This document shows, one piece after another, positions 4,017 through 49,118 of a stretch of DNA of 64,000 nucleotides. The notes under the pieces are model-generated. The model saw only the letters and a program-made list of their open reading frames with translations. It was not told the origin of the DNA and made no database searches. A program made the position numbers and the translations under genes. Each line of letters begins with the position of its first letter. The stretch's first letter is position 1. The DNA is from an uncultured Clostridia bacterium (lineage in GTDB: Bacteria; Bacillota; Clostridia; TANB77; UBA1234): contig CAKPEV010000001.1 in the NCBI GenBank assembly GCA_934149405.1, positions 552 through 64,551 of the forward strand, in the 5' to 3' direction.

Positions 4017-7000
4017 TTATTTGTTTTCTGTTTTGCTGTTTGGTTTTATTTCTTCCATGATGTATGATTCTATCTTATCTCCAACTTTTATATCACTATA
4101 GTCTTCTATTTGAACACCGCATTCATATCCTTCTGCAACTTCTCTTGCATCATCTTTCATTCTCTTTAATGATGATAGTTTGCCTGTATGAATTACTACA
4201 TTGTCTCTTATTACTCTTAAGCCTGAGTTTCTAACTATTTTTCCCTCTAATACATAACATCCTGCTATCATACCAACATTTGTAATCTTAAACACTTGTC
4301 TTATCTCTGCTGTTCCTTGAATTACTTCTTTATATTTTGGTGTTAACATTCCGTTTAATGCTGCTGTTACATCATCTATTGCGTTATAAATTACTGAGTA
4401 TATTTTTATTTCTACGCCTTCTTTATCTGCAACTTGTTTTGCTGTTGATTCTGGTCTTACATTGAATCCTATTATTATTGCGTTTGTAACTTTTGCAAGT
4501 GTTACATCTGATTCTGTAATTCCACCAACGTTTGCGTGTATTATTCTAACTCTCGCTTCTTCATTTTGTATCTTTTCTAATGATTGACGAAGTGCTTGAA
4601 CACTACCTTGTACATCTGCTTTTATTATGATATTCAAGTCTTTTAACTTGCCTTGTTCTATTTGATTAAATAAGTTGTCTAGAGTAACTGGTGCTGCTTT
4701 TCTAATCATGTCTTCTCTTTGTTTGCTCTTTCTCTTTTCGATTAAGTGCTTAGCTACTTTTTCGTTTTCTACTTCGTAGAATATTTCACCTGCTTCTGGC
4801 ACTTCCGAAAGACCTATTACTTCAACTGGTGTAGATGGTCCTGCCGCTTTTACTTTTTGTCCTTTATCATCTACCATTCCTCTTATTTTTCCTATTACAC
4901 TACCTACAACTATTGTATCACCAATATTTAATGTTCCTCTTTGTACAAGCAATGATACTGTTATACCAGCATTCTTATCTAGTCTAGCTTCTAATACTGT
5001 TCCTTTTGATTGTTTATTAGGATTTGTTTTTAAATCTTTCATATCAGCAACTAGCAATACCATTTCTAATAGTGCATCTATGTTTTTGTGTTGTTTTGCA
5101 GATATAGGTACACAGATTGTGTCTCCGCCCCATTCTTCTGGAACTAAGCCATACTCTGTAAGCTCTTGCTTAACTCTATCTATATTTGCTCCCTCTTTAT
5201 CTATTTTGTTTATTGCAACTATTATTGAAACGCCTGCTGCTTTTGCATGGTTTATTGCTTCTACTGTTTGTGGCATTATACCATCATCTGCAGCCACTAT
5301 AATTATCGCTATATCTGTAACTTGAGCACCTCTTGCTCTCATTGCTGTAAATGCTTCATGTCCCGGTGTGTCTAAGAAAGTGATTTCTCTTCCATTGATT
5401 TCAACTTTATACGCACCAATATGTTGTGTGATTCCACCTGCTTCTCTTTCACTTACATTTGTTGAACGTATTGCATCAAGAAGTGACGTCTTACCATGGT
5501 CTACGTGTCCCATTACTACTACAACTGGTGGTCTTGGTACTAAGTCTTCTTCTCTATCATCTGTATCATCAAATAGTATATCTTCATCTGATACAACTTC
5601 TTTTTTATGTGCTGTTACACCAAATTCATTTGCCACTAAAAATGCTGTATCGAAATCTAATTCATTATTAAGTGTTGCAAGTATTCCATAACCCATCAAT
5701 TTCTTTATTACTTCTGATGCTTGTTTCTTTAATTTCTCAGCCAATTCTTTTACTGTTATCGTCTCTGGAATTTCTATATCTGTAAGCTCAAATATTTTTT
5801 GCTCGATATGTTCTTTGCTTTCTGTTGGTTTTTTCTTGTTTTTCTTGAAACCTTTTTGTCTGTTTGATAAATCATAATAATCAAACATCTTGCTTTCTGT
5901 ATCATTGAACATATTTGAAAAGTTGCTTTCAGATTGCAAATCTTTTAATTTTCCAAAGTTAATATCTTCATCCATTTCTCTAACAACTTTTGATTTTGAA
6001 ACTTTCTTTGTTGGCTCTTCAAATTTTCTGTTGTCTTTTTCTTTATCTTTATAACCTGTTCTAACAATCTCTCTAACTGGCTCTTTTGTAGTAGCTTCTG
6101 AACTTGCTATTACATCTTTTATTCCTTTTTCTATCTTGTTTTCTCTCGATTGATTTTGTTTATTAAAGCCACCTTGACCATTTGGTCTTCTTCCATCTTT
6201 ATTAAATGGTCTGTTTTCTCCTCTATTATCGCCTTTATTTCCGAACTTATTATCTCTGCCATTATTATAATCTTTTCTAAAGTCTCCACCTTGTCTATTT
6301 TGGTTTCTGTCTTTACCATCTCTATCTTGATAAGGTCTATTATTATATGGTCTTTGATTTCTATTTTGATTGTCATTATTTCTATTTTCAAATCTGTTAT
6401 ATGGCTTTTTATTTTCTTCTCTTTTAATTTCTTTCTTTTCTGTTTCTATTTTTTCAGAATTTACTACTGGCACTTTCTCAACAACCTTTTCTTTCTCAAT
6501 TTCTTTTTTTTCTACTGGCTTTTCTTCAATTGGTGCAATCACTTTCTTTTCTTCTACCACTTTTTTATCTTTAATCGTTTCTTCTACTTTTTTTATCTCT
6601 GGCTTTTCAGCGATTTTTTCTATTGTTTTATGTTCAACACTATTTACAACCGCTTTTTGCTCTTCTTTCGGTGTAATACTAGCAATTTTCTTAGGTGGTG
6701 TTCTATATTTTATATTCATTGAAGTATCGGTTCTTCTTTGAACAACTCCCAAATCATCTCTTATAGGTCTTTTTATATCTTTTTTAGTCTCTGGCTCATC
6801 TGTCTCGATTCTAGTAACCTCTCTACGAATAATAACGGGAGCAATTGGTTTTTTCTCTTTTTTGGCGTTATCTTTCTTTGGTTCTTTTCCACCTTTAAGC
6901 TGTTTTTTTATTCTTTCTATATCAGTCTCTTCTAATATTGACATATGATTTTTTACGTCATATTTTAAATCAATTAGTTTTTCAACTAATTCTTTACTTT

Positions 7001-9204: not shown

Positions 9205-9285
9205 TATACTTTTATTATGCTACAGTTATTTTACTATAAATTCATAGTAAAATCAAGCATTTTTCATAAATTCGTGCCACTTTTT

Positions 9286-11607
9286 CTACATAACTTCTGG
9301 GGTTGGCTTTGGTTCAACAGGTAATTCAGCATCAGGTGTTGGAGTTATTTTCGAAATATTTCCAACAACTTGATAACCACACTCTGTGCATTTACCATCT
9401 GTTATTTTTTGATGTGAATGTGGTAATTTTGTAATTTCATTTCTCGTATATGCATATAAAATCGTTGCATCTTCTTCAGTTATTTTTCCATCTGCATTCA
9501 CATCCGCTACTTTTTCGTTTATTTTCGTACTGTTATTTTTTAAGTATGCATTCAATTTAGCAACATCGTAAAAATCAACCGTTCCATCTCCATTTACATC
9601 GCCATATAAAATTTCTTTTTGCTCGTATCCGCATTTTGCACATTTACCATCTTTTAGTTCGTGTTCTTCTTCTACTTTACCCAACGATAATCCGCAACCA
9701 CATGTATATACTATCTTATGTTTTTTCTCATTTAGTTGTTCAATCTCTATTTTATATGTTTGACAATCATGTGGTAATTTTTGAAATTCTGGCCATTCTG
9801 CAAAGTACATTCTCATTATTTGCAAATCGATTTCATTTACTTTTCCATCCATATTGACATCTGCTGCTTTTAAATCTATTTTTCCTACATCATAGCCTCC
9901 TTGCAAATATCTTGCTAATATTGTCCTATCTTTTGCTGTAACTACTCCATCTCCATTTACATCGCCATATAAAATTTCTTTTTCATATCCGCATTTTGTG
10001 CATTTATCATCTTTAAACTCATGATTTTCATCGCTTTCTGCTAAAGATAACCCACAACCACATGTATAAACTATTTTATGCTTTTCTGAATCAGCTTGCT
10101 TTATCTCTGTCTTGTATGGCTTTTTACAATCATGTGGCAACTTTGCGAAATCAGCCCATTTTGCAAGATGTTTTGTTAATATTATTAAATCAACTACATC
10201 TATTTTTCCATCTAAGTTTAAATCTGCTGCTTCTTTATCTATTTCTTCACTTGGATCTTGTATGTATTTTGTTAATGATAATCTATCTTTAGCTGTAACC
10301 TCGCCATCTCCATTTACATCACCGTATATGATTTCTTTTTCATATTCACATTTTGTGCATTTGTCATTTTTTAGTTCATGTGCTTCTGTAACCTGTCCTA
10401 AAGATAATCCGCAACCACATGTATAGACTATTTCGTGATTTTTAGCATCACTTTGTTTTATCGCTGTAGTGTATGGCTTTTTGCAATCGTGTGGCAACTT
10501 TGAAAAGTCAGCCATTCCGAAAATATTATTCATTATTATAAATGCATCTGCAATGTCTATTTTTCCATTCAAATTAACATCTGCGGCGTTTTTATCTATA
10601 TTTGCGACCTCACCCTTTAAATATTTTGATATAAGTGATACATCATCCGATGTAACTTTTCCATCTCTATTCGCATCACCATATAAAATTGTTAATTCGT
10701 GTTTACAACCTGTGCATACTTTATTTTTATATGTGTGCTCATGTGGCAATTCTTTTATATCTTTATTAACATACGCTTTTAGTACTATTGCATCAATTAC
10801 ATCAACATTGCCATCTTGATCTAAATCTAAATATTTATCTGCATTTTTTCTAATTTCATAAGGAATTTCATTTGCATAATCTTCTGGGAAGATTGAGTAA
10901 TTTTGTAAAAGTAGTGCATCTTCTTTCGTAATCTTGCCATCTCCATTTACATCGCCAATACTAAATGACTCAAGTTCACCTATCGCAATTTTTTGAAACA
11001 CATTATACATAAGTTGTGAAACTTCTGCTCTTGTTAAATTACCTTGTGGATCAAAACGTCCTTCTTTTCCTCTCATTATTTCATTTTTTACAGCTATTGC
11101 TACATATTTTTTAATGCCTTCTGAAATTTCACCACTATCTGAAAATTTGTTTAATAGCGTATAATCAGGTTTTTCATTTTGAAGCCCTTCTGCTTGGACA
11201 ACTGCTACAGCTACATCTTCTCTTACTGATGCTTCAGTTGGTCTAAAAAAGTACTTTCCATTGTTTTCATATCCAGTTAAATATCTACTAGCCCTATATA
11301 TGTAATCTTTTGACCATCTATCTTCTTCGATATCTACAAATTTTATGTTTGTTGTATTTCCTGCTATTTTTAGTGTTTCTACTAATATTTTTGCAAATTG
11401 TTCTCTTGTTACGCTTTCATCTGGTCTAAATGTTCCATCTTCGAAACCATTTAGCACTCCTTTTACTGCCATTTCTTCTACTACGGTTTTTGCCCAGTGT
11501 CCTTCAATATCGCTAAATGTTGTAGCGGCGAATGACAATGTTCCTAATGTAACCATAACAAATGAAATTATCGCTGTTACGATTACTTTCAACTTCTGGT
11601 TCATCAA
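9286..11607 (-). CDS. Secreted SLH-domain surface protein carrying five dockerin-like Ca-binding modules interleaved with Cys/His-rich (zinc-ribbon-like) modules
   Basis: Signal peptide. SLH motifs FSDIEGHWAKTVVEEM...REQFAKIL. Paired loops DVNGDGKITKED / DLDQDGNVDVID repeated five times. Repeated module LPHDCKKPY...YTCGCGLSL...H...C.KC. Confidence 0.7.
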   Translation of the reverse strand: MMNQKLKVIVTAIISFVMVTLGTLSFAATTFSDIEGHWAKTVVEEMAVKGVLNGFEDGTFRPDESVTREQFAKILVETLKIAGNTTNIKFVDIEEDRWSKDYIYRASRYLTGYENNGKYFFRPTEASVREDVAVAVVQAEGLQNEKPDYTLLNKFSDSGEISEGIKKYVAIAVKNEIMRGKEGRFDPQGNLTRAEVSQLMYNVFQKIAIGELESFSIGDVNGDGKITKEDALLLQNYSIFPEDYANEIPYEIRKNADKYLDLDQDGNVDVIDAIVLKAYVNKDIKELPHEHTYKNKVCTGCKHELTILYGDANRDGKVTSDDVSLISKYLKGEVANIDKNAADVNLNGKIDIADAFIIMNNIFGMADFSKLPHDCKKPYTTAIKQSDAKNHEIVYTCGCGLSLGQVTEAHELKNDKCTKCEYEKEIIYGDVNGDGEVTAKDRLSLTKYIQDPSEEIDKEAADLNLDGKIDVVDLIILTKHLAKWADFAKLPHDCKKPYKTEIKQADSEKHKIVYTCGCGLSLAESDENHEFKDDKCTKCGYEKEILYGDVNGDGVVTAKDRTILARYLQGGYDVGKIDLKAADVNMDGKVNEIDLQIMRMYFAEWPEFQKLPHDCQTYKIEIEQLNEKKHKIVYTCGCGLSLGKVEEEHELKDGKCAKCGYEQKEILYGDVNGDGTVDFYDVAKLNAYLKNNSTKINEKVADVNADGKITEEDATILYAYTRNEITKLPHSHQKITDGKCTECGYQVVGNISKITPTPDAELPVEPKPTPEVM

Positions 11608-11707
11608 AATTCCCCCTTAATATAAATTTTTAAAACTTACACTTATTTTATTATAACTTATTAGACATAAATAAGCAATATTTTCCATATATTTGTTGGG
11701 TTCATTT

Positions 11708-12718
11708 TTACCATCTGGATTTATGCTTGCGTGGTATTCTTCTCACACACTCTCTGTCAATGCAAATATTCACCACGCATTTTGACATTTTTAAGATAGT
11801 TTTTAAATTATTATAATTTTTTAAATTTGTTTTACTAATAATTTCCAGCTCAGTTTTTTCAAATTTTCTCTTTACTTTTTTAGTTATACCAAAAAGCGTA
11901 GCATATATTAAACATTGTTCAAAAAATTTAGTGTCTAATGTTGTTCCATTTGAAATCTTTGCATAATTTTCTAAATAGTTTTTAAACTCTTTTATTCTAA
12001 TCGCATCATCTAGAATAAGTTTGTATTCATTTTCTTTTTGCTTTAAGATACTACTAAACCAGTTATATAAATACTTACTATTTTTTCTAGCGCATCGCTT
12101 CAACTCTCTTTTAGTTAAAGTGCCATCCTTGCTCGGTATCATTATTCTATAATACAATTCCTTTTCTAATTCGTTTTCAAAACTTTTATTTAAAATAATA
12201 TCTTCTATTTTGCAGCCTTCATATAACAGAGGAAACTCACCATATTCTGCAATTAATCCGCCTATCTTATTACCCTCTATTGTTATTTTTCCATCAATAA
12301 CCCACTTTAATAATATTGCGTCCAAGATATCCGTTCTGCTTTTTAGCATGCCATATTGGTACGCAATATAATATATAGAAAAAATATATTCTGTATCTAT
12401 TCCATTAGTGCTATATTCTTTATACTTTTTTATTTGCATTCTTTCTTTTTTACTCGTTTTTCTTCCTATTGAACCGATAATTTTTTCAAGCACTATTATA
12501 ATTGTTACACACGATACTGTAAAAGTTAAGGGAAACATGTATTCATTTGAAACAATCGTCACTCCTATAGTTGCTAAGTTGCTAGCAATTGTAGGGACAA
12601 ATAGTGGTGCAAACCATAGGAAAGTATAAGTTAAACTGTTCTTTATATCTGTTTTTTTCAGTATATACCTTTCATATGCTATGAAATATGTAACTAACAA
12701 TACGATACATATGCCCAA
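11708..12718 (-). CDS. Hypothetical membrane protein: N-terminal TM helices, then a basic/Cys-containing C-terminal domain
   Basis: 336-aa ORF. Hydrophobic N-terminal segments. No recognisable family. Confidence 0.45.
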   Translation of the reverse strand: MGICIVLLVTYFIAYERYILKKTDIKNSLTYTFLWFAPLFVPTIASNLATIGVTIVSNEYMFPLTFTVSCVTIIIVLEKIIGSIGRKTSKKERMQIKKYKEYSTNGIDTEYIFSIYYIAYQYGMLKSRTDILDAILLKWVIDGKITIEGNKIGGLIAEYGEFPLLYEGCKIEDIILNKSFENELEKELYYRIMIPSKDGTLTKRELKRCARKNSKYLYNWFSSILKQKENEYKLILDDAIRIKEFKNYLENYAKISNGTTLDTKFFEQCLIYATLFGITKKVKRKFEKTELEIISKTNLKNYNNLKTILKMSKCVVNICIDRECVRRIPRKHKSRW

Positions 12719-13005
12719 AAAATAGTTTTCCAGCTGTCATTCCTCCCTTCATTTATTAAGACTTATAATTTTATATATTTTCTAACAATTTTTGTTTCTC
12801 CGCCTTTTAATTGATTGTGTTTGCCTATCTTTTACGGAACACATCTAAACATACTCCACTTTTTATAAGCTAATTTTGCCATCTACTTATGTAGTCATTT
12901 TATCACAAAATTAGCTATTTTTCTATATTTTTCTAGCTTGTAAGTTCTTATAATACTTTGTTAAGTTACGTTTGTTACGTTACTTTTCTTAAGGTAAACA
13001 TAATA

Positions 13006-13034
13006 TTGACAAATTTGCTTAAATATGCTATAAT
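13006..13034 (+). promoter_or_regulatory. Consensus sigma-A promoter: TTGACA, 17-nt spacer, TATAAT
   Basis: Exact match to both hexamers with optimal 17-nt spacing, 55 nt upstream of the ATG of the small GC-rich gene. Confidence 0.65.
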
Positions 13035-13089
13035 ACACGATGTAAGTAATTCAATTATATTATACAACCTTAAGGAGGGTTTCACAATT

Positions 13090-13374
13090 ATGAACAACAA
13101 CTACTTCAACAACAAGCGGTATCTGACCAGCGCTCGTACTTTACCGGACGGTTGCGCATTGCGGTTCACTTTCCCCAACGGCTATGCCGCTAGCGTCTCA
13201 AGAGACTCCGTAAGTTACGGTGGTTCTCAAGGACTATGGGAAGTTGCCGTTATACACGGTAAAGAGTTTGTCTATGACACTCCTATCACCGATGACGTCC
13301 TCGGTTGGCAGACCGACGATGATGTCGAGCAGGTTCTCAAACGGATTCGTGAACTTCCAAAGCGCGTTAACTAA
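13090..13374 (+). CDS. Small (94 aa) protein of unknown function encoded with atypical GC-rich codon usage
   Basis: AAGGAGGG RBS 11 nt upstream of the ATG. About 50% GC against about 28% in neighbours. Codons AAC/TTC/CTG/CGG/GAC preferred. Followed by a terminator. Confidence 0.6.
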   Translation: MNNNYFNNKRYLTSARTLPDGCALRFTFPNGYAASVSRDSVSYGGSQGLWEVAVIHGKEFVYDTPITDDVLGWQTDDDVEQVLKRIRELPKRVN

Positions 13375-13382
13375 CAACCAAC

Positions 13383-13429
13383 GAGGGAGACCCTCACCAC
13401 CAAGAGTTAATTCTCGAGGTGGTTTTTTT
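13383..13429 (+). terminator. Rho-independent terminator(s): GAGGGAGACCCTC hairpin plus CCACC..GGTGG followed by T7
   Basis: Stem-loops then TTTTTTT. Confidence 0.55.
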
Positions 13430-14156
13430 ATCTTATCTCTTCCACATAATATATATATTCAAGCGTACTTAGTGCTTTTATTATTTCACTATGTTTTTTG
13501 TATTTTTTTAGTTCTTTACTGTCTATTGTTATTGATATTGAATATACGCTAAGGCCTGAGTTTATATATGCTGGATTTAGTTCGATGTCATCTATTCTAA
13601 GTCCCAATTTTCTGATTGTTGTTACAAAGTCTTGTAGATAGCTTTTGTTTTTTAATTCTAGATGGATTTCAAAATGATTTGAACTATCTTTCAGTGTTGC
13701 TTCGAATTTTGGAAATATGTATAGTATGCATATTAGTGCTATAAATGATACTGTTGTTACTGTGTATAATCCTGCACCTATTGAAAGCCCTATTATTCCG
13801 GCAGTCCACAAGCCAACTGATGTTGTTAATCCTTTTATTTGATTTTTTGATGTGAATAGTATTGAGTTTCCACTAAGCATTGCTGTGCTTATTATTGTTG
13901 CTGTTGATAAGAACGCAAATACTACTCCAAAATCTTGCATTAAATATAAGTCTATTAACATTGCTATTGTTGAAGCAAGCGATACTAATATGAATGTTCT
14001 TAATCCTGCTGAGTGTCTTTTTATTGAACGCTCACAACCTATTATTGCTGAAAATATAATTGATATTATTATTCTAAATATTATCGCTCCTGCTCCAAGT
14101 TCTGATGACCAATCGCCAAGCATTGTAGCTATCGGATCTTCTAACATATAATACAT
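13428..14156 (-). CDS. mgtC: MgtC/SapB family membrane protein
   Basis: GAGAIIFRIIISIIFSAIIGCERSIKRHSAGLRTF is the MgtC signature. Confidence 0.8.
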   Translation of the reverse strand: MYYMLEDPIATMLGDWSSELGAGAIIFRIIISIIFSAIIGCERSIKRHSAGLRTFILVSLASTIAMLIDLYLMQDFGVVFAFLSTATIISTAMLSGNSILFTSKNQIKGLTTSVGLWTAGIIGLSIGAGLYTVTTVSFIALICILYIFPKFEATLKDSSNHFEIHLELKNKSYLQDFVTTIRKLGLRIDDIELNPAYINSGLSVYSISITIDSKELKKYKKHSEIIKALSTLEYIYYVEEIR

Positions 14157-14196
14157 TTTTCTCTCCTTTTCTGCCTTCTCTTCGGCTTATCTTCTA

Positions 14197-15639
14197 TTAT
14201 TTTTTCTTATTGCTCCGAAGTGATGCATATTGTTCTTCGGCAGCATCTAGAAATGCTTGCTCTTCATCCGACAATACATTTTCACCATGTTCAGGTAATT
14301 CTTCTTGTATTTTGTGTATTCTGTCTATTAAAAGTTCTATTTCTGTTTTCTTTTCTCCCTCTTCTGTAACTTCGCTTTCTGGCACTAGGTCTTCTAATTT
14401 ATCGCTATATGATTTTGATAAATATAGTGCAAGCTTTGCACAACCTGGTCCTATTAGCTCATAAAGTACACTTGATGCTAGTATTATTGTTTGTAGTGCA
14501 TTTCCTATTTCCCCTCCTAATGTTCTAGCTCCAAGTGCTGCAAGACCTATTGCAACTCCCGCTTGAGGAATTAGTGCAAGTCCTAAATAGTTTCTAACCT
14601 TACTATCTTTTTTTGTAACTAAACATCCTAAATATGCACCTAAATATTTTCCAATTATTCTTACTATAAAATATAATACACCCACGGTTAAAAGTGATAC
14701 GCTTCCGACTGCTGATGATGTATTTACAAGTGCATCTAGTTTAAAACAGATACCTGATCTTACGAAAAATAATAATAGAATTGGTGGACTAAAGTAATTT
14801 AATTGTTTAAATAATTTATCATCATTTGTTATATTTATATATATCATTCCCATTGACATACAACCTAATAGTGGCGAAACATCAAGTAATGCACATATTC
14901 CACAAAATGCAAATAGTAATGATATAAGTATTATAAGTCTATTATCTGTTGAACGTTTTTGAGGCATTAAAAGTTTCATCACGACACCAAACAATGCTCC
15001 TGCTAATAAAACAACGATATTTGTTGCTATTGGTATCATTATATTCCTTATGCTGAATGCTCCTGCACCTGGCGCTATTGCAAGTGCAATTGATATTGCG
15101 ACGCTATATAGTATTAAACCTACAACATCGTCTAGTGCAACAACTTGCAACAGTGTATCTACGAAGTCGCCTTTTGCACCTGTTTGTCTTATTGTCATAA
15201 CAGTTGATGCTGGTGCAGTTGCAGACGCAAGTGCAGCAAGCACAAGTGAAAATGCCAAGTCTAAGCCCAAAATAAAATACGTTAAGCAAAATATTAAAAT
15301 CGATGCCAAGACAGATTCTAATATTGTTATTATTACAACTTTTGCTCCATTTTTTTTGAGCGTTTCAAATTTAAAGAACTCGCCTGTGCTAAAAGCTATA
15401 AACGCAAGTGCTATGTCTGCCAAAAATTCCATTCCATCTGTAACTATACTTGGTACTAAGTTTAAGCAAAATGGCCCAAGTAAAATTCCTGTTATAATAT
15501 AAGCCGTTACATTCGGCAATTTTAATAGCTTTGTGATTCTAGTCATTGCAAAGCCAAAAAACAGCATAAATGCTATTGATATTACGACTGATGCAACCGA
15601 TGATGAACCTGCAATTATGCTATGTAATGCTCCAAGCAT
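14197..15639 (-). CDS. Monovalent cation:proton antiporter (CPA family, Na+/H+ or K+/H+ exchanger) with a hydrophilic C-terminal tail
   Basis: About 12 TM helices. Na_H_exchanger-like N-terminus (ITKLLKLPNVTAYIITGILLGP). Confidence 0.75.
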   Translation of the reverse strand: MLGALHSIIAGSSSVASVVISIAFMLFFGFAMTRITKLLKLPNVTAYIITGILLGPFCLNLVPSIVTDGMEFLADIALAFIAFSTGEFFKFETLKKNGAKVVIITILESVLASILIFCLTYFILGLDLAFSLVLAALASATAPASTVMTIRQTGAKGDFVDTLLQVVALDDVVGLILYSVAISIALAIAPGAGAFSIRNIMIPIATNIVVLLAGALFGVVMKLLMPQKRSTDNRLIILISLLFAFCGICALLDVSPLLGCMSMGMIYINITNDDKLFKQLNYFSPPILLLFFVRSGICFKLDALVNTSSAVGSVSLLTVGVLYFIVRIIGKYLGAYLGCLVTKKDSKVRNYLGLALIPQAGVAIGLAALGARTLGGEIGNALQTIILASSVLYELIGPGCAKLALYLSKSYSDKLEDLVPESEVTEEGEKKTEIELLIDRIHKIQEELPEHGENVLSDEEQAFLDAAEEQYASLRSNKKK

Positions 15640-17236: not shown

Positions 17237-18106
17237 TTACTCATTCGTCCCTCCAATTAATTTTTGATCATCTAATTTCGTTATACCTATTATATTATTA
17301 TCGCTTGCTAAAATAGTTATTTGTCTTTTAGCAGTTTCATTTAATTTTTCTAATCTATCTTTTTGACCAATATTATTTTCTATCATACTGGCATTTAATA
17401 CCTCTAAATTAGATAAGACAACTAAATGTAAAATATCTGTATAATCTCTTATATTACCCTCCAATTTTGGATTATTTTCTCTCCACTCTTTTGCAGTCAT
17501 TCCAAACAATGCTACATTTATTACATCTGCTTCGTTAGCATAAACAAAAACTTTTTGTTTATCTGTTAAAGTAGGAACTAAATTTTCTTTAATACTATCA
17601 GTATGTATTCTATAATTTGTTTTTGATAAGCTTCTTCTAACAGACCATTCTATTTTTTCTTGATATGTTTCATTATATTTTAATCTTTCAAATTCTTGAA
17701 TCAAATATAATTTAAATGCGGGATCTATCCAAGACGCAAATTCTAAGGCAATATCTGGATGCGCAAATGTGCCACCATCATATTTTCCTCTTTTACTTAC
17801 AAAACCTTTAGCATTTGTAGTACTTATCCATCTAGAAGGACTCATTGTAAAAGAATTATTTGCAGAGTCATTTTTAAACTCGCGAGATTCCGCTAGTTTA
17901 AAATTTTCATTAAACAGTTCTTCCCAAAGTGAATAAAAATCAAAAGAACTTTTATTGCTCATCCACTTAATAACAACATCACCAGGATTATCAGGATTTT
18001 TGTATCTTGCCAAATCTGTTAAAGATATATAATCTATATTATCAACTCTCATTACGTTTATCAAATTATCTTTTACATTCATTTTTGTTGTAATTTTATT
18101 ATTCAT
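17237..18106 (-). CDS. KilA-N domain-containing protein (phage-associated DNA-binding family)
   Basis: VMRVDNIDYISLTDLARYKNPDNPGDVVIKWM...FTMSPSRWI matches the KilA-N family. Confidence 0.7.
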   Translation of the reverse strand: MNNKITTKMNVKDNLINVMRVDNIDYISLTDLARYKNPDNPGDVVIKWMSNKSSFDFYSLWEELFNENFKLAESREFKNDSANNSFTMSPSRWISTTNAKGFVSKRGKYDGGTFAHPDIALEFASWIDPAFKLYLIQEFERLKYNETYQEKIEWSVRRSLSKTNYRIHTDSIKENLVPTLTDKQKVFVYANEADVINVALFGMTAKEWRENNPKLEGNIRDYTDILHLVVLSNLEVLNASMIENNIGQKDRLEKLNETAKRQITILASDNNIIGITKLDDQKLIGGTNE

Positions 18107-18134
18107 ATATTATCCTTCCTTTCTATTTTATATT

Positions 18135-18473
18135 TTAGATGCTGCAAGAAAAATATATATCTGTTATTTTTTGATAAAACCTTCTCTCACTTGAACGAAT
18201 ATTCCTAATTCTTTCAAGTATTTCCTCAAAATAATCTTCTCCAAATATGTAATTAGGATTTTTTAATCTTTCATCATCCATAACTACACCTTTTATCATA
18301 TATTCTTTTAATATTTTAGTAGCCCAAATTCTAAAGTTGGTTGCTTTTTTTGAATTTACTCTATATCCAACTGCAATAATCATATCAAGGTTATATATCT
18401 TTACAGGTTTTTCAGAATTATCAACGTCGGTTTTTCCGACGGTATTATTTTCTTCATTCTTTTCTCCTTTCAA
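18135..18473 (-). pseudogene. Internal fragment of a RhuM-family (virulence protein RhuM-like) gene
   Basis: YNLDMIIAVGYRVNSKKATNFRIWATKILKEYMIKG is the conserved RhuM core, but the ORF is only 112 aa. It lacks the family's N- and C-terminal regions. Confidence 0.55.
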
Positions 18474-18530
18474 CTATTCACATTTTAACATAAGAGCAAG
18501 CGATTTTCAATAAATTCGCTTGCTCTTCAT

Positions 18531-18734
18531 TTATACTTTATTAAATATTATCTTTTTTTCTTTCATTGATATTTTGACAATTTCATAACCATATTCTTGC
18601 AATTCTTTTTTATATTTTAAGAATGAGTGATCTATTTCAAATCCTAAAATATTTTTAATTTCTTCATATGTTAGCTCATAATGTTCTTTCTTATTTGCAT
18701 ATATGTATTCCCATAAAGGCTTATATTTGCTCAT
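18531..18734 (-). CDS. Hypothetical 67-aa protein
   Basis: ORF only. No family recognised. Confidence 0.3.
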   Translation of the reverse strand: MSKYKPLWEYIYANKKEHYELTYEEIKNILGFEIDHSFLKYKKELQEYGYEIVKISMKEKKIIFNKV

Positions 18735-18884
18735 ATGCCACCCTCTTTTTTACATATTTCTGATATTTTTTTCATTGTGTTTGCAGTTCTTATGGTAATT
18801 TTATCTTTTATACTTATATTTACTCCTCTTAATAATGCTATATATTTCATATATCAAGCCTACTTTCTGCTTAGTAATAAGTAT

Positions 18885-19495
18885 CTATTTTTTCATGACC
18901 TTTTTTGCCCATGTCTTTTCGTGACATTTTGGACATTTTAAATATCTTGTTGTTCCCATATGAAGCGAAAATATTACTTCTTTGTATGTTGGAACAAATC
19001 TATATTTGCACTCCTTGCACTCATAATAGCCTGCATCTAATTCGATTTTTACCATCATAAAACACACTGCTATAAAAAATGCTGTTGAGGCAGCTATTAT
19101 TATTCCACCTATCAATTTTTCTTTTAGCAATAGCACTGCTAAAAGTACTATACCTATGTAAAACGCCGTACTCGCTATTAGCACTATCCACATTGCTGTA
19201 AGTAATTTTTTGTTTTTTAGCTCATCTTGACTTGCAAGCTCTAGTAACAATTCTTCTGTTTTTTTGTCATGTTCTTTCATATCAATCATCTCCCCACTTA
19301 ACAATTCATTTACACTTATTTTTAGTTCACTGCACAAATCTAACATTATAGATGAATCAGGTAACGATTTTCCGTTTTCCCATTTTGATATTGCCCTATC
19401 TGTAATGTTTAGTTTTTCTGCCAATTGCATTTGAGTTAAATTGTTTTTCTTTCTACATTCTGCTATAAATTTTCCGATTTTAATTTGATCCACTA
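18885..19495 (-). CDS. XRE-family HTH regulator fused to a TM segment and a C-terminal Cys4 zinc-ribbon. Start reassigned to GTG, preceded by AAGGAGGG.
   Basis: HTH LTQMQLAEKLNITDRAISKWENGKSLP. Hydrophobic helices. CKECK...CPKCH. Confidence 0.7.
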
Positions 19496-19589
19496 AATTT
19501 CCCTCCTTATATCTCAAGTGTAAAATGTTGCTTTTAAAAAATCTACATACCGTTGGTTGAGTGGAGATATCAACCAATGGTTGTTTGGT

Positions 19590-20069
19590 TTAGGCTCTTA
19601 CGTAATCAATGATTTGCTGTAAGTTTGACTCAGAAACAAAATTTTCACCGTACTTAAATAATTTTATCATTTCTTGATTTTCTGGCTTATTGTCTATCTC
19701 CATCATTTTTCCAACCCACATAAAAAGCTTCTTTGTAAAGTATCCTAATTTGTCATAATTCAATCCACCTCTTAAATAAAATAATGGCTTATCTAATTTA
19801 TTTTTTGTAGCCAAACTAGCTATGTATGCATCTTCCTTTGGATATATTCCGACTGCTCCTACGCATTTAACATTGTATTTTTTCACTTTAGCTAGACCTT
19901 TTATTTTAGTAGCCGCTATCCATCCTAGAAATATAATTTCATCGTTTCTTTTAAGCTGTTTTCTCGCTTCTTTAGCAGTTAATGCTGGAACTTTGATTTT
20001 CTCACTTAACATTTCGGCATATTGCTTAGTATGACCTGTACTACTTTCATATACAATTGCTTTTAACAT
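19590..20069 (-). CDS. Flavodoxin-like fold protein
   Basis: 159 aa. N-terminal KAIVYESSTGHTKQYAEML resembles a flavodoxin FMN-binding loop. Confidence 0.5.
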   Translation of the reverse strand: MLKAIVYESSTGHTKQYAEMLSEKIKVPALTAKEARKQLKRNDEIIFLGWIAATKIKGLAKVKKYNVKCVGAVGIYPKEDAYIASLATKNKLDKPLFYLRGGLNYDKLGYFTKKLFMWVGKMMEIDNKPENQEMIKLFKYGENFVSESNLQQIIDYVRA

Positions 20070-20473
20070 TTTTACTACCTCTCTTTAATCAAATTGTGTT
20101 TGCCAATCTTGCTTATTCTATTTTTTCGCATCTTACTTGCAAGTTTTAATAAACTTCTATGTATGCTTTGCAAGTCCATTTGAAAATCTTTTTGCTTTAG
20201 TTGGATTGCCTGTGTCAAATATAGTTTTTTTCATGGTTAATCTTCTTTTTTCTTTTAATTTTACTTTTTTTACCATATCTAATATTTTTCTAATATCTAT
20301 TGTTCATTTATATAAGTCCATTTACAGTATAAATTTTATTACACTTTATATGCTTTTTCAACAAGTCTGTAAATTTGAGGACATATTTACAATATTTGTA
20401 GCTTTACATAGATTACATAAAAACGTTACAATTATATTGTACGAGACTAAGACTAATGAAGGAGGTTTTAATT

Positions 20474-21710: not shown

Positions 21711-22622
21711 TTAAGCTTCGATTGCAAGCTTTGCAAGTCGGATTGCTCCGTCCTTAGACATTGCTGCACCAATAAATCCATTTGGGTGACAGAAAGTAGC
21801 ATCACTTACTCCTGTCAATTCTTGGAGTTCTTTTGCCGGAGCTCCCCACCATTCCTTAGGTGTAGATTTGCGAACGGCAAAATTACCCAGACTTTCAGGG
21901 ACGGCTTGCCAATTAAAGCCTCCTCTGTTAGAAGGAAATACTACAAACAGTATTTCTGCTGCCTTCGGATTATCAGAAGCAAACAACGCATCCTGCCACG
22001 GCACGAATGTCTCCAGAACCATAATATGGTCTTTGGAATTTTCAATCGCCGCCTCAACTATCCCAATGGCTTTAACCTTTGAAATAGTATTCGACAGAAG
22101 CCTATCGAAGATTCTCTTTGCCTCGTCAACGGCCTTTACAAAAGCCTCATCCGGTGTTTCTGTGCTGTCCCATGCAGGATTGAAACTTGAAATGATAGCA
22201 GAAATCGTCATAGGCTTGACCACAGCTTCACATCTTGGTATTGCACCGCAATCAATTGCATCGATACCAGATATCAACTGCTCATCAATCAGCCGCCATA
22301 CGTTTTCTACGTCTTCGACCTCTTTCAAGAGTTCTTTACCAAACTCTCTCCAGATAAGTCCACACGAAGCGTACGGTACGCCGTTTTCTCTTGCGCCATT
22401 TCCTCCACGCTGATGATGGTCATATTTACCTCCACCAATGTCGAGTACAATAGTGCCATCGGGAAGGTCATTCGGAACCTTAAAGACCCTTGAGACCTTC
22501 ATCTCCCGGCCGAAAATTTCCGAAAGAATGGCAACTGCCATTACCTCATCTGCATGGAACACACCTCCATGAGTTACAACCTGAGCTTCTGCGGGGTTCT
22601 TCGTAATAATAATGTTTTCCAT
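21711..22622 (-). CDS. MYG1/UPF0160-family metal-dependent protein hydrolase. The gene is markedly GC-rich (about 47%).
   Basis: THGGVFHADEV N-terminal motif and length (303 aa) typical of the MYG1 family. Codon usage atypical for the window. Confidence 0.7.
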   Translation of the reverse strand: MENIIITKNPAEAQVVTHGGVFHADEVMAVAILSEIFGREMKVSRVFKVPNDLPDGTIVLDIGGGKYDHHQRGGNGARENGVPYASCGLIWREFGKELLKEVEDVENVWRLIDEQLISGIDAIDCGAIPRCEAVVKPMTISAIISSFNPAWDSTETPDEAFVKAVDEAKRIFDRLLSNTISKVKAIGIVEAAIENSKDHIMVLETFVPWQDALFASDNPKAAEILFVVFPSNRGGFNWQAVPESLGNFAVRKSTPKEWWGAPAKELQELTGVSDATFCHPNGFIGAAMSKDGAIRLAKLAIEA

Positions 22623-26939: not shown

Positions 26940-27023
26940 TGGTGCGGGTGAGAGGACTTGAACCCCCACGTCTGTGACACTAGATCCTAAGTCTAGCGCG
27001 TCTGCCAGTTCCGCCACACCCGC
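26940..27023 (-). tRNA. tRNA-Leu (anticodon UAG), class II with a long variable arm, genomically encoded CCA
   Basis: Reverse complement reads GCGGGTGTGGCGGAACTGGCAGACGCGCTAGACTTAGGATCTAGTGTCACAGACGTGGGGGTTCAAGTCCTCTCACCCGCACCA. Anticodon loop CTTAGGA. Confidence 0.85.
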
Positions 27024-48739: not shown

Positions 48740-49118
48740 TCAAGGACGAAAAATCCCTAGCATGCAAACTTTATGCATACTAGGGACGATTTTTCCGTGG
48801 TACCACCCTGATTTAATATTCCAAAATATAAGGTTTAATACTACAAAAAACCTAGCATTGTAACAATGCTAGGGACGAATTTTTTCGCGGTACCACCCAA
48901 TTTCAATATCATGGATATCCTTAAGTAGCCTTTAACGCCAGCTATGCGAACTTGCTTTGCACAAGCCTACTCGAAAGGTGTTCTTTCATCAGTTTCGTTT
49001 ATGAAAACTCTCAGCTACGGTTAATTTTCACTCTCTTTAAACTACCTCTAATTACTTTTCCTTCGTCAACGCATTTTCAATGTGTTTCAATTTTAACATT
49101 TTATATAGTATATGTCAA
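48740..49118 (-). promoter_or_regulatory. T-box riboswitch leader of aspS. It carries its own TTGACA-17-TAAAAT promoter, Stem I with an AGAGAG box and a putative GAU specifier. It ends in two tandem antiterminator/terminator modules.
   Basis: Minus-sense T-box sequences TTGGGTGGTACCGCG (48886-48898) and AGGGTGGTACCACGG (48795-48809). Each is followed by a hairpin plus U-run (CCTAGCATTGTTACAATGCTAGG-TTTTTT and CCCTAGTATGCATAAAGTTTGCATGCTAGGG-ATTTTT). Confidence 0.75.

What the first reader, a model, noticed from the sequence alone, without database searches (positions are those of the whole stretch)
12990..13430. Moron-like expression module: consensus sigma-A promoter, AAGGAGGG RBS, 94-aa ORF with 50% GC codon usage and a terminator, dropped into a 28% GC chromosome
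TTGACA-17-TATAAT (13006-13034) is an exact consensus promoter. The RBS is ideal. The 285-nt ORF (13090-13374) uses AAC/TTC/GAC/CTG/CGG/GTC codons that are rare in every neighbouring gene, whose preferred codons are AAT/TTT/AAA/AGA. The gene ends in GC hairpins plus T7.

The protein (MNNNYFNNKRYLTSARTLPDGCALRFTFPNGYAASVSRDSVSYGGSQGLWEVAVIHGKEFVYDTPITDDVLGWQTDDDVEQVLKRIRELPKRVN) matches nothing I can recognise. A strongly expressed, compositionally foreign single gene between a membrane-protein gene and mgtC is typical of horizontally acquired morons. Candidates include anti-defence or small regulatory proteins. An engineered or contaminant insertion is also possible.
Basis: seen in the sequence. 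Interest (0 to 1): 0.65.

Follow-up and report, generated by a model that had tools for sequence, protein, structure and literature searches.

The report
GC-rich phage-family gene cassette
A real 94-residue protein gene from a very large, uncharacterised phage protein family sits in this AT-rich bacterial chromosome as a self-contained promoter-to-terminator cassette, and the same cassette occurs in at least six independent chromosomal sites and a conjugative element while keeping an abnormally GC-rich coding sequence.

Summary
Window 13006-13429 holds an exact TTGACA-17-TATAAT promoter with a TG extension, a GGAGGG ribosome-binding site, a 94-codon ORF and a hairpin plus T7 terminator. ORF GC3 is 0.55 against a host mean of 0.215 (z = 6.9).

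It is not an artefact, an engineered insert or an RNA gene. The identical protein occurs on many independent contigs with the same junctions. dN/dS within its clade is 0.03-0.25. AlphaFold2 gives pLDDT 93.6.

The protein belongs to phrog_4074 (unknown function). The family has about 4,900 clusters at 50% identity, is common in early and DNA-metabolism modules of phages from many phyla, has no Pfam model and matches no solved structure.

The unusual part is the cassette. The about 425-bp unit is conserved across six independent housekeeping slots (seven host backgrounds) and an ICE, and it is antiparallel to its neighbours in 6 of 6 chromosomal slots. Only this clade is GC-rich: other family members track local GC. 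That GC is maintained, since third-position GC-to-AT and AT-to-GC changes are balanced (24:23 and 50:49, against about 3.6:1 expected).

The 3'UTR is as conserved as non-synonymous sites and carries an anti-SD-like CCCUC. Protein function is unknown; my best guess is a ligand- or partner-binding effector.

The parts
12993..13005 (+). Conserved A-rich block (GGTAAACATAATA) just upstream of the -35 hexamer. It marks the left edge of the conserved cassette and may act as an UP-like element.
   Evidence: Homology between unrelated insertion contexts starts here. The promoter block has mean pairwise identity 0.61, against 0.30 for DNA further upstream.
13006..13034 (+). Sigma-A type promoter: TTGACA, 17 nt, TGnTATAAT (extended -10). 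The predicted transcription start is about 13040-13042.
   Evidence: Scores 12/12 with a TG extension. The hexamers and part of the spacer (CTTAAATAnGCTATAAT) are conserved across slots. The start site is inferred, not measured.
13040..13089 (+). 5'UTR of about 50 nt containing the Shine-Dalgarno AAGGAGGG (13072-13079).
   Evidence: GGAGGG(T/C) is near-invariant in the clade. The SD is predicted to be paired with probability 0.6-0.94.
13090..13374 (+). CDS for a 94-aa acidic protein (pI 5.7) of family phrog_4074. GC is 0.50 and GC3 is 0.55.
   Evidence: - Family match: phrog_4074 at E = 1.9e-15.
- Homologs: 29 in the first search. A profile search found 4,914 representatives.
- Selection: dN/dS 0.03-0.25. 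Variable columns by codon position are 31/28/80.
- Structure: AlphaFold2 pLDDT 93.6.
- Longer calls of 122 aa or 138 aa by gene callers read through the promoter and are artefacts.
13383..13395 (+). 3'UTR hairpin 1: GAGGG-AGA-CCCTC. Its 3' arm is an anti-SD-like CCCUC (CCCTCACCACC at 13391-13401). It begins 8 nt after the stop codon.
   Evidence: - CCCTCACCACC is near-invariant in the clade and occurs once in the window.
- RNAalifold pairs it with the SD in 10 of 10 sequences.
- The hairpin is kept by compensatory change in L286 (AGAGC..GCTCT).
- On the minus strand it scores as a terminator-like site for the convergent mgtC.
13395..13429 (+). Intrinsic terminator: stem CACCACCAAGAG / CTCGAGGTGG, a TTAATT loop, then T7. 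It marks the right edge of the cassette.
   Evidence: - Read directly from the sequence.
- Compensatory G-C to A-U in 3 sequences. The internal loop is closed in L005.
- L014 diverges from the window exactly at 13429.
- Mean 3'UTR identity is 0.74, against 0.45 at 4-fold sites.
- The mgtC stop codon (13428-13430, minus strand) overlaps the T-run.

Best explanation
Window 12993-13429 is an autonomous promoter-to-terminator gene cassette of about 435 bp.

Shown:
- It encodes a real 94-aa single-domain protein with a five-stranded beta-sheet and a C-terminal helix. The protein belongs to a very large, uncharacterised phage protein family (phrog_4074).
- In phages, family members lie in early, recombination and replication modules and have host-like base composition.

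Shown for the cassette lineage:
- One lineage of the family became a free-standing cassette: consensus promoter, GGAGGG RBS, CDS, and a conserved two-hairpin 3'UTR.
- This lineage spread among AT-rich Firmicutes. It is found in a conjugative element and in six independent chromosomal housekeeping slots (seven host backgrounds).
- In the chromosomal slots it is retained under purifying selection while the DNA around it turns over.
- The coding sequence is held at about 45-51% GC by a sustained force, not by recent import.

Inferred:
- The force holding GC is selection on the mRNA (structure or stability) and/or GC-biased gene conversion among alleles.
- Expression is driven by a maximal promoter. 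It is probably tempered after transcription by an anti-SD-like CCCUC in the 3'UTR. That element can pair either with the SD or with a local GAGGG arm that lies within the footprint of a terminating ribosome. Very rare codons would also reduce output.
- The protein is acidic, has no obligate partner gene, and carries invariant polar residues (N30, Y32, S35, Y43, E51, Y62-D63-T64, T67, D69) across phyla. It most likely binds or sequesters a universally conserved ligand or host factor, as small phage counter-defence or host-takeover effectors do.
- The chromosomal copies are host-retained derivatives.
For: Coding gene:
- dN/dS is 0.03-0.25 with saturated dS. Variable columns by codon position are 31/28/80.
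- AlphaFold2 pLDDT is 93.6 and pTM 0.85.
- phrog_4074 matches at E = 1.9e-15. A profile search found 4,914 representatives at E <= 1e-3.
- At least 572 viral loci carry a homolog, as do phages of Firmicutes, Actinobacteria, Proteobacteria, Bacteroidota and Cyanobacteria.

Phage context:
- Homologs lie between a cro-like repressor and recombinase, RecT or SSB genes.
- Neighbour genes are diverse and no partner recurs.

Cassette unit:
- Homology among contexts begins about 15 nt upstream of the -35 and ends at the T-run.
- Mean pairwise identities: promoter 0.61, 3'UTR 0.74, 4-fold sites 0.45, flanks 0.28-0.30.

Contexts:
- DUF2207_C / mgtC (this window)
- Peptidase_S66 / acetyltransferases (L005 and L183)
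- HAD hydrolase / UvrC region
- CobW
- aminotransferase / tRNA synthetase
- Sua5
- an ICE with PcfK, PcfJ and TraG

GC anomaly:
- It is specific to this clade. Across about 155 loci gene GC tracks flank GC, except for this clade.
- The nearest phage-borne relative has GC3 0.25.

GC maintenance:
- Third-position S-to-W and W-to-S counts are 24:23 on shallow branches and 50:49 on deep ones. About 3.6:1 is expected (binomial p = 3e-5 and 7e-10).
- In the shared L005/L183 slot, flank dS is 0.31-1.10 with flank GC3 0.11-0.17, while cassette GC3 is 0.43 and 0.41.

mRNA level:
- Consensus-fold z is -2.49 on the sense strand (3 of 400 shuffles as good) and +1.22 on the antisense strand.
- SD:CCCUC pairing is predicted in 10 of 10 sequences, with one compensatory pair.
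- The pairing probability is 0.5-0.8 in 8 of 12 variants.
- Precedents are icaR (PMC3868564), hbs (PMC5737220) and distal anti-SD sequences in B. subtilis (PMC12697547).

Other:
- The cassette is antiparallel to its neighbours in 6 of 6 chromosomal slots.
- Family members are acidic, with pI mostly 4-5.7.
Against: - Protein function is entirely inferred. Nothing matched in Pfam, NCBIfam, PADLOC, or the PDB by sequence or fold, and no informative domain fusions were found.
- The mRNA-structure signal is modest (z about -2.1 to -2.5). It comes from a mononucleotide column shuffle. Single-sequence fold z is about -2 on both strands.
- The anti-SD idea is not uniformly supported. In L286 the hairpin is kept but CCCTC is lost. 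In the L097 group the local hairpin dominates. L005 lacks the GAGGG arm.
- Balanced substitution counts could partly reflect recombination between alleles (the mosaic patch), which parsimony reads as symmetric changes.
- No mobility signature was found, so how the cassette reaches new slots is unexplained.
- Expression level, transcription start and termination are all predicted, not measured.
Confidence: 0.6

Rival explanations
1. Simple recent horizontal acquisition. The gene was imported from a donor with about 50% GC (phage, plasmid or ICE) and has not yet ameliorated. The GC excess has no functional meaning.
For: - A GC difference plus an own promoter and terminator is the classical signature of acquired DNA and of morons (PMC3594210).
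- Copies occur in an ICE.
- The flanks of the window copy are rearrangement-prone.
Against: - All 36 clade loci lie in flanks of 23-32% GC. No member was found in a GC-neutral background.
- dS between subclades is at least 1, yet GC3 stays at 0.41-0.60.
- Third-position S-to-W and W-to-S changes are balanced.
- The L005/L183 slot shows residence over flank dS of 0.3-1.1.
- The non-coding parts of the cassette are AT-rich and Firmicute-like, and are conserved together with the CDS.
Confidence: 0.15
2. The functional product is a structured non-coding or dual-function RNA. On this view the ORF is incidental, or secondary to an RNA role such as a C-rich regulatory 3' element acting in trans on SD regions.
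For: - GC-rich islands with a strong promoter and terminator in AT-rich genomes are typical of structured RNA genes.
- The consensus-fold signal is specific to the sense strand.
- The 3'UTR is more conserved than synonymous sites and contains a C-rich motif like those of Firmicute sRNAs.
- The codons used are among the rarest in the host.
Against: - No Rfam family matched at E <= 1.
- Protein-level purifying selection is strong.
- The protein family spans phyla with indels in loops, and the model is high-confidence.
- Only 9 of 82 predicted pairs show double-sided changes, and the covariation term is -3.6 of -57.5 kcal/mol.
- A purely non-coding reading is excluded. A dual role is not.
Confidence: 0.1
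3. GC is maintained by GC-biased gene conversion rather than by selection. Frequent recombination among cassette alleles in chromosomes and ICEs drives GC up passively.
For: - The window and L008 differ by a clustered patch of 21 substitutions in about 120 nt, inside otherwise near-identical DNA. This is a recombination tract.
- Conserved cassette ends could serve as homology arms.
- The substitution flux is balanced.
Against: - Within the cassette only the CDS is GC-rich. The promoter and 5'UTR stay AT-rich although they would be co-converted.
- The enrichment is in C more than G and avoids A at third positions. This looks strand-specific, that is, at the mRNA level.
- The degenerate copy L183 has the lowest GC3.
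Confidence: 0.15
4. Artefact: a chimeric assembly, a contaminant or an engineered insert.
For: A perfect consensus promoter and SD with a sharp compositional step look synthetic.
Against: - The exact protein is indexed in 39 blocks of the collection. 22 contigs from independent samples were read, and the contigs shown have the same neighbours.
- Natural allelic series of 98%, 88% and 84% identity sit in the same slot.
- Diverged cassettes with the same architecture occur in other genomes.
Confidence: 0.01

Closest known systems
Phage morons (for example the HK97 gp15 element; defined in PMC3594210)
   Same: An independent transcription unit with its own promoter and terminator. [quoted passage not shown] It is a single accessory gene of phage ancestry.
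   Different: It is not inside a prophage: the flanks are housekeeping genes. The same unit recurs in six chromosomal slots and an ICE. The GC difference is maintained over dS > 1 rather than being a transfer scar. Only one IMG/VR contig carries this cassette form.
PHROG family phrog_4074 (phage proteins of unknown function)
   Same: The HMM matches at E = 1.9e-15 over residues 9-89 of a 90-position profile. The conserved motifs are shared: FPNGYxASV, SYGG..GLWE.AV and VYDTPITDDV.G.
   Different: Phage members are embedded in early operons with host-like GC3 and no private promoter or terminator. The window gene belongs to a small subclade, about 1-2 of roughly 4,900 clusters at 50% identity, that became a free-standing GC-rich cassette.
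icaR mRNA 5'-3' UTR interaction in S. aureus (PMC3868564) and distal anti-SD sequences in B. subtilis (PMC12697547)
   Same: A C-rich anti-SD-like motif in the 3'UTR, several hundred nt downstream, is complementary to the gene's own SD (GGAGGGUU: RRCCCUC). It is predicted to pair in 10 of 10 aligned sequences.
   Different: The evidence here is in silico only. The motif doubles as the 3' arm of a local hairpin whose 5' arm mimics the SD, and it abuts the terminator. It is not conserved in the most distant cassette, L286. RNase III dependence is unknown.
Small phage counter-defence 'sponge' or inhibitor proteins (Tad1/Tad2, Acb2, Ocr, ArdA and similar; recalled from general knowledge)
   Same: About 90 aa, acidic, stand-alone, encoded in early regions of very diverse phages and on conjugative elements. 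Polar residues are strongly conserved, which suggests a binding pocket.
   Different: There is no sequence or fold similarity to any solved structure or Pfam family. No activity was tested. This is a functional analogy, not membership.

Membership tests
Moron (phage 'more DNA' element, PMC3594210) | Own promoter and terminator forming an independent transcription unit | tested here: met
   12/12 promoter with TG extension. Hairpin plus T7 with compensatory changes. This is sequence-level evidence only.
Moron (phage 'more DNA' element, PMC3594210) | GC content differs from surrounding genes | tested here: met
   GC 0.50 against 0.31. GC3 z = 6.9.
Moron (phage 'more DNA' element, PMC3594210) | Inserted between genes of a phage or prophage genome | tested here: not met
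   Flanks within +/-10 kb are the nusA-infB operon, an SLH/dockerin protein, DUF2207_C, MgtC, a Na/H exchanger, Mini-III and RbgA. Other slots are also housekeeping.
Moron (phage 'more DNA' element, PMC3594210) | Expressed from the repressed prophage and confers a host phenotype | not testable with these tools
   No expression or phenotype data are available.
phrog_4074 protein family | Significant full-length match to the family HMM | tested here: met
   E = 1.9e-15, 57.7 bits, residues 9-89 against profile positions 9-89 of 90.
Known RNA families (Rfam 15) | Covariance-model match | tested here: not met
   No match at E <= 1 in 12000-14500. None at gathering threshold in the whole window at this site. 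No tmRNA or tRNA here.
Structurally characterised anti-defence proteins (Tad, Acb, Gad, Ocr, ArdA, Acr and similar) | Sequence or fold similarity to a solved member | tested here: not met
Known anti-phage defence systems (PADLOC-DB) | HMM match of the protein or of adjacent genes | tested here: not met
   No match for the protein or three homologs. Neighbours gave only weak HD/Cas3-like and primase-like partial hits in the ICE.
icaR-type 5'-3' UTR anti-SD control | 3'UTR motif complementary to the gene's own SD, predicted to pair | tested here: met
   Seven base pairs in 10 of 10 sequences, 97% of cells paired, one pair with U-A to C-G change. Pairing probability 0.5-0.8 in 8 of 12 variants.
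icaR-type 5'-3' UTR anti-SD control | Motif conserved for that role across relatives | tested here: inconclusive
   CCCTC is invariant in the core clade and is kept in L005 without the hairpin arm. It is replaced by GCTCT in L286, and the local hairpin out-competes it in L097 and L098.
icaR-type 5'-3' UTR anti-SD control | Pairing blocks translation and/or triggers RNase III decay | not testable with these tools
   This requires reporter, structure-probing or rnc-mutant experiments.
Transposable or integrative mini-elements (IS, MITE, integron cassette) | Terminal inverted or direct repeats, target-site duplication, or attC-like site at consistent positions | tested here: not met
   Only 7-11 nt matches at inconsistent offsets in AT-rich DNA across 10 loci, consistent with chance.

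The most novel reading that the evidence does not exclude
The cassette is a previously unrecognised kind of minimal, host-retained genetic unit. On this reading the GC-rich mRNA is itself under selection, for example as a structured, nuclease-resistant and self-limiting messenger or as a dual-function RNA that uses its C-rich 3' element. It encodes the founding chromosomal member of a new-fold phage effector family that binds a universal cellular ligand. Its strict head-on, antiparallel placement and its maintained compositional disequilibrium would then be functional design features rather than history.
Probability: 0.15. Interest if true: 0.75.

Novelty: new variant of a known kind. Interest (0 to 1): 0.5.

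Why it matters
- It flags a very large phage protein family (about 4,900 clusters at 50% identity, present across bacterial phyla). The family has no Pfam model and no solved or similar structure, and the model is confident and compact. This makes it a tractable target for functional and structural work on phage early genes.
- It gives a clean natural example of a coding sequence held far from its host's base composition: GC3 of about 0.5 against 0.2, over saturated synonymous divergence and with balanced substitution flux. That bears on how amelioration, mRNA-level selection and biased gene conversion shape acquired genes.
- It cautions against reading 'foreign GC' as 'recent'.
- The cassette could serve as a portable, self-insulated expression unit for AT-rich Firmicutes: consensus promoter, SD, conserved 3'UTR with an anti-SD-like element, and bidirectional-looking terminators.

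Tried and rejected
- RNA-gene hypothesis: Rfam with the evalue threshold found nothing, and ARAGORN found no tmRNA. Single-sequence folding gave z of about -2 on both strands, which is uninformative.
- Function by homology: Pfam, NCBIfam and PADLOC gave no hits. The PDB profile search found nothing significant. Foldseek against the PDB found nothing significant. BFVD returned only uncharacterised phage proteins.
- Domain fusions: ten longer family members showed no Pfam domains.
- Guilt by association: neighbours in about 136 loci are diverse. The only recurrent ones are a phrog_624 'DNA binding protein' and a DNA ligase in a few phages.
- ICE neighbours: not a recognisable defence system.
- Diversity-generating retroelement (DGR) style hypervariation for the clustered central differences: rejected, because the changes are not adenine-specific.
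- Mobility signatures (target-site duplications, inverted repeats): none consistent.
- DNA-level search in isolated phages and plasmids: no match, or only distant protein hits.
- IMG/VR scan for the 3'UTR signature: 98 of 99 hits were chance matches.
- Literature search for the PHROG id or the motif: nothing.
GTDB representatives held only two distant CPR homologs, but the search pattern was narrow, so this says little about rarity.
- Translational-optimisation explanation for GC: rejected, because the ORF is enriched in the host's rarest codons (CGG, CTC, TCC, CCC, GTC, GCC, ACC).
Full report
OBSERVATION

TTGACA (13006-13011), a 17-nt spacer and TATAAT (13029-13034), preceded by TG, give a 12/12 promoter score. 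It is the only perfect match in 12000-14500. AAGGAGGG lies at 13072-13079, the ATG at 13090 and the TAA at 13372-13374.

Downstream there is a GAGGG-AGA-CCCTC hairpin (13383-13395). It is followed by a longer stem (13395-13422) and T7 (13423-13429).

ORF GC is 0.50 against 0.31 for the window. GC3 is 0.553 against 0.215 +/- 0.049 for 40 window genes (z = 6.9). The amino-acid sequence with host codon usage predicts GC3 of only 0.207. The ORF is enriched in the host's rarest codons.

The SD-to-ATG spacing is 11 nt, which is long. The protein does have relatives.

NOT AN RNA GENE AND NOT AN ARTEFACT

A GC-rich island with a strong promoter and terminator in an AT-rich genome is the usual look of a structured RNA gene, so I tested that first. 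Rfam gave nothing at E <= 1, and there is no tRNA or tmRNA here. The evidence instead points to a protein-coding gene:
- The ORF matches PHROG family phrog_4074 (unknown function) at E = 1.9e-15.
- It has 29 homologs in the word-indexed search, ranging from 98% to 38% identity.
- A profile search found 4,914 representatives at the 50%-identity level.
- At least 572 confirmed loci exist in IMG/VR.
- Isolated phages of Streptococcus, Mammaliicoccus, Listeria, Streptomyces, Microbacterium, Pseudomonas, Vibrio, Polaribacter and Synechococcus carry homologs.
- Within the close clade, dN/dS is 0.03-0.25 with saturated dS. Variable columns by codon position are 31/28/80.
- AlphaFold2 gives pLDDT 93.6 and pTM 0.85. 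The model has five beta-strands and a C-terminal helix.

The identical protein is indexed in 39 blocks of the collection. 22 contigs were read, and the contigs shown keep the same neighbours. Alleles of 88% and 84% identity sit in the same slot, and a 98% allele shares its right flank, inside DNA that is 96-98% identical. Chimeric assembly, contamination and engineering are therefore excluded. The longer 122-aa and 138-aa gene calls read through the promoter and are artefacts.

WHAT THE PROTEIN IS

Conserved motifs are FPNGYxASV, SYGG..GLWE.AV and VYDTPITDDV.G, plus a C-terminal I...LP. Many invariant residues are polar. Members are acidic, with pI mostly 4-5.7.

In temperate Firmicute phages the gene lies between the cro-like repressor and SbcC-like, RecT, SSB or DnaD genes. 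Across about 136 loci no partner gene recurs. Longer members carry no recognisable fused domains. Function therefore cannot be assigned by homology.

THE CASSETTE

The surprising result concerns the unit, not just the gene. Clade members with 60-98% protein identity, plus the degenerate L183 copy (about 50%), all carry the same architecture:
- an A-rich block and TTGACA
- a CTTAAATAnGCTATAAT-type spacer and -10
- GGAGGG(T)
- the CDS
- a 3'UTR of the form CACCAAC-GAGGG-loop-CCCTCACCACC-stem-loop-GGTGG-T6-7

Homology between contexts begins about 15 nt upstream of the -35 and ends at the T-run. Outside those bounds the sequences are unrelated.

The contexts are:
- DUF2207_C / mgtC (this window)
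- Peptidase_S66 / acetyltransferases, in two diverged hosts (L005 and L183)
- HAD hydrolase / UvrC region
- beside CobW
- aminotransferase / tRNA synthetase
- Sua5
- a conjugative element with PcfK, PcfJ and TraG

Among seven subclade representatives the mean pairwise identities are:

| Part | Identity |
|---|---|
| Flanks | 0.28-0.30 |
| Promoter block | 0.61 |
| 5'UTR | 0.48 |
| 3'UTR | 0.74 |
| Codon position 1 | 0.77 |
| Codon position 2 | 0.81 |
| Codon position 3 | 0.49 |
| 4-fold sites | 0.45 |

The non-coding elements are therefore selected as part of the unit.

The terminator stem shows compensatory changes, and hairpin 1 is kept by compensatory change in L286. No consistent repeat or target duplication marks the borders.

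The flanks are rearrangement-prone while the cassette persists:
- L096 lacks 3.65 kb, ending 65 nt upstream of the -35.
- L178 has a 1.2-kb insertion at 12793-12826.
- L014 diverges exactly at 13429.
- In the UvrC slot, two contigs diverge about 220 bp downstream.

In 6 of 6 independent chromosomal slots the cassette is antiparallel to the surrounding genes. It lies on the strand with negative GC skew, meaning head-on to replication. In the ICE it is co-oriented with its neighbours. The mgtC stop codon overlaps the cassette's T-run. On the minus strand, hairpin 1 scores as a terminator-like site, so the 3' region may terminate both convergent genes.

Only one IMG/VR contig carries this cassette form. 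Isolated phages have no DNA-level match.

THE GC ANOMALY IS CLADE-SPECIFIC AND MAINTAINED

Across about 155 loci, family-member GC tracks flank GC. In AT-rich phages GC3 is below the flank GC. The exception is the cassette clade, which has GC 0.41-0.51 and GC3 0.41-0.60 in flanks of 0.23-0.32. The nearest phage-borne relative, L283, sits in an AT-rich phage operon and has GC3 of 0.25.

Four results show that the GC is maintained:
- dS between subclades is at least 1.
- Parsimony on 14 distinct CDSs gives third-position GC-to-AT: AT-to-GC counts of 24:23 on shallow branches and 50:49 on deep ones. About 3.6:1 is expected if host mutation bias acted on a GC3 of about 0.5 (p = 3e-5 and 7e-10).
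- In the slot shared by L005 and L183, flank genes have dS of 0.31-1.10 and GC3 of 0.11-0.17, while the cassette CDS keeps GC3 of 0.43 and 0.41.
- L183 has lost the VYDTPITDDV motif, and it has the lowest GC3 in the clade.

So the GC excess is not a fresh transfer scar.

Translational optimisation is unlikely, because the rarest host codons are used. A column-shuffle null for RNAalifold gives z = -2.49 on the sense strand (3 of 400 shuffles as good) and +1.22 on the antisense strand. With six representatives the values are -2.13 and -0.89. This is modest, strand-specific support for conserved mRNA structure.

A recombination patch keeps GC-biased gene conversion alive as an alternative. Against that alternative, the AT-rich promoter and 5'UTR and the C-rich, A-poor third positions argue for an mRNA-level cause.

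A BUILT-IN BRAKE?

RNAalifold pairs the SD (GGAGGGUU) with RRCCCUC of the 3'UTR in 10 of 10 sequences, with one pair changed compensatorily. Partition functions give a pairing probability of 0.5-0.8 in 8 of 12 variants. In the L097 group the CCCUC instead closes the local hairpin with GAGGG. That GAGGG arm begins 6-8 nt after the stop codon, within the reach of a terminating ribosome (an inference from the sequences).

Precedents exist. The icaR 3'UTR UCCCC motif pairs with its own SD, blocks initiation and recruits RNase III (PMC3868564). The hbs mRNA has a 5'/3'UTR interaction (PMC5737220). In B. subtilis, distal anti-SD-like sequences pair with the RBS, promote decay and are normally depleted from genes (PMC12697547).

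The support is incomplete. L286 keeps the hairpin but not CCCTC, and L005 keeps CCCTC but not the hairpin. I rate this mechanism as plausible (about 0.35-0.4), not shown.

INTERPRETATION

Shown:
- This is a real protein gene of a huge phage family.
- It is packaged as a conserved promoter-to-terminator cassette that recurs in many chromosomal slots and in an ICE.
- The protein, the promoter and the 3'UTR are all under purifying selection.
- The GC-rich coding composition is maintained and specific to this clade.

Inferred:
- The cassettes were delivered on larger mobile elements. Only the selected unit was retained, which would imply a benefit to the host.
- The mRNA itself is under selection.
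- Expression is high at the level of transcription but is self-limited.
- The protein binds a universally conserved ligand or host factor, by analogy with small phage counter-defence or host-takeover effectors.

It is moron-like in design but fails the defining 'inside a prophage' criterion. I class it as a new variant of a known kind, with moderate interest (0.5). Protein function remains the main open question.

Noticed in passing
window 13428-13430 (minus strand) and 13379-13399: The stop codon of the convergent mgtC gene overlaps the last bases of the cassette's terminator T-run. Hairpin 1, read on the minus strand, scores as a terminator-like site. The cassette's 3' region may therefore act as a bidirectional terminator, and it may have reshaped the 3' end of mgtC.
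   Followed up: partly
window 9285-12940 and 12793-12826; loci L096, L178, L014: The DNA left of the cassette varies between strains. L096 lacks the SLH/dockerin and DUF2207_C genes (3.65 kb). L178 and L011 carry an extra DUF3137 gene. L014 has duplicated fragments of upstream sequence right after the terminator. This is a local rearrangement hotspot.
   Followed up: partly
window 9286-11607 (minus strand): A 773-aa surface protein with an SLH domain and several dockerin/EF-hand-like repeats separated by Cys-rich modules. Its internal repeats are about 70-80% identical, and its length differs between strains (773 aa against 864 aa).
   Followed up: no
window 48868-49078 (minus strand) and 26940-27023 (minus strand): A T-box leader (93.1 bits, just above the gathering score) and a tRNA-Leu gene are the only Rfam or ARAGORN hits in the window.
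   Followed up: no
window about 17800-20100; L178 and L179 14148-16465: A small strain-variable island just beyond the RbgA gene encodes KilA-N, RhuM-like and HTH_3/HTH_19 proteins. It looks like a mobile-element remnant and lies about 4-5 kb from the cassette. KilA-N is truncated or absent in L178.
   Followed up: no
L183 5838-6143: A degenerate cassette copy in the Peptidase_S66 / acetyltransferase slot. The VYDTPITDDV motif is replaced by VDDFYIIHTYLGWRYNP, Y43 is lost, dN/dS against L005 is 0.31, and its GC3 (0.41) is the lowest in the clade. It is probably decaying.
   Followed up: partly
L097 about 6552-6573; L104 6556-10390; L255 2145 onward: About 220 bp downstream of the cassette in the UvrC-region slot, related contigs diverge. 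L104 has a 3.8-kb insertion there, and the contig called viral by IMG/VR diverges at the same point. This suggests an integration hotspot next to the cassette.
   Followed up: partly
L001 6418-10129 and L015 2125-2487: In the conjugative-element copies the cassette is followed by a conserved trio of genes: 196 aa, 865 aa with an HD domain (weak Cas3-HD-like and phrog_10007 matches), and 123 aa. Their function is unknown.
   Followed up: partly
window 13180-13300 against L008 and L011: There are 21 substitutions, both synonymous and non-synonymous, clustered in the central 120 nt or so of the ORF. The promoter, UTRs and ORF ends are identical. This is an allelic recombination tract inside the gene.
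   Followed up: yes
window 21711-22622 (minus strand): The MYG1-family exonuclease gene has the highest GC3 (0.39) among the 40 ordinary genes of the window. A MYG1 gene also lies near the cassette in the unrelated L183 slot.
   Followed up: no
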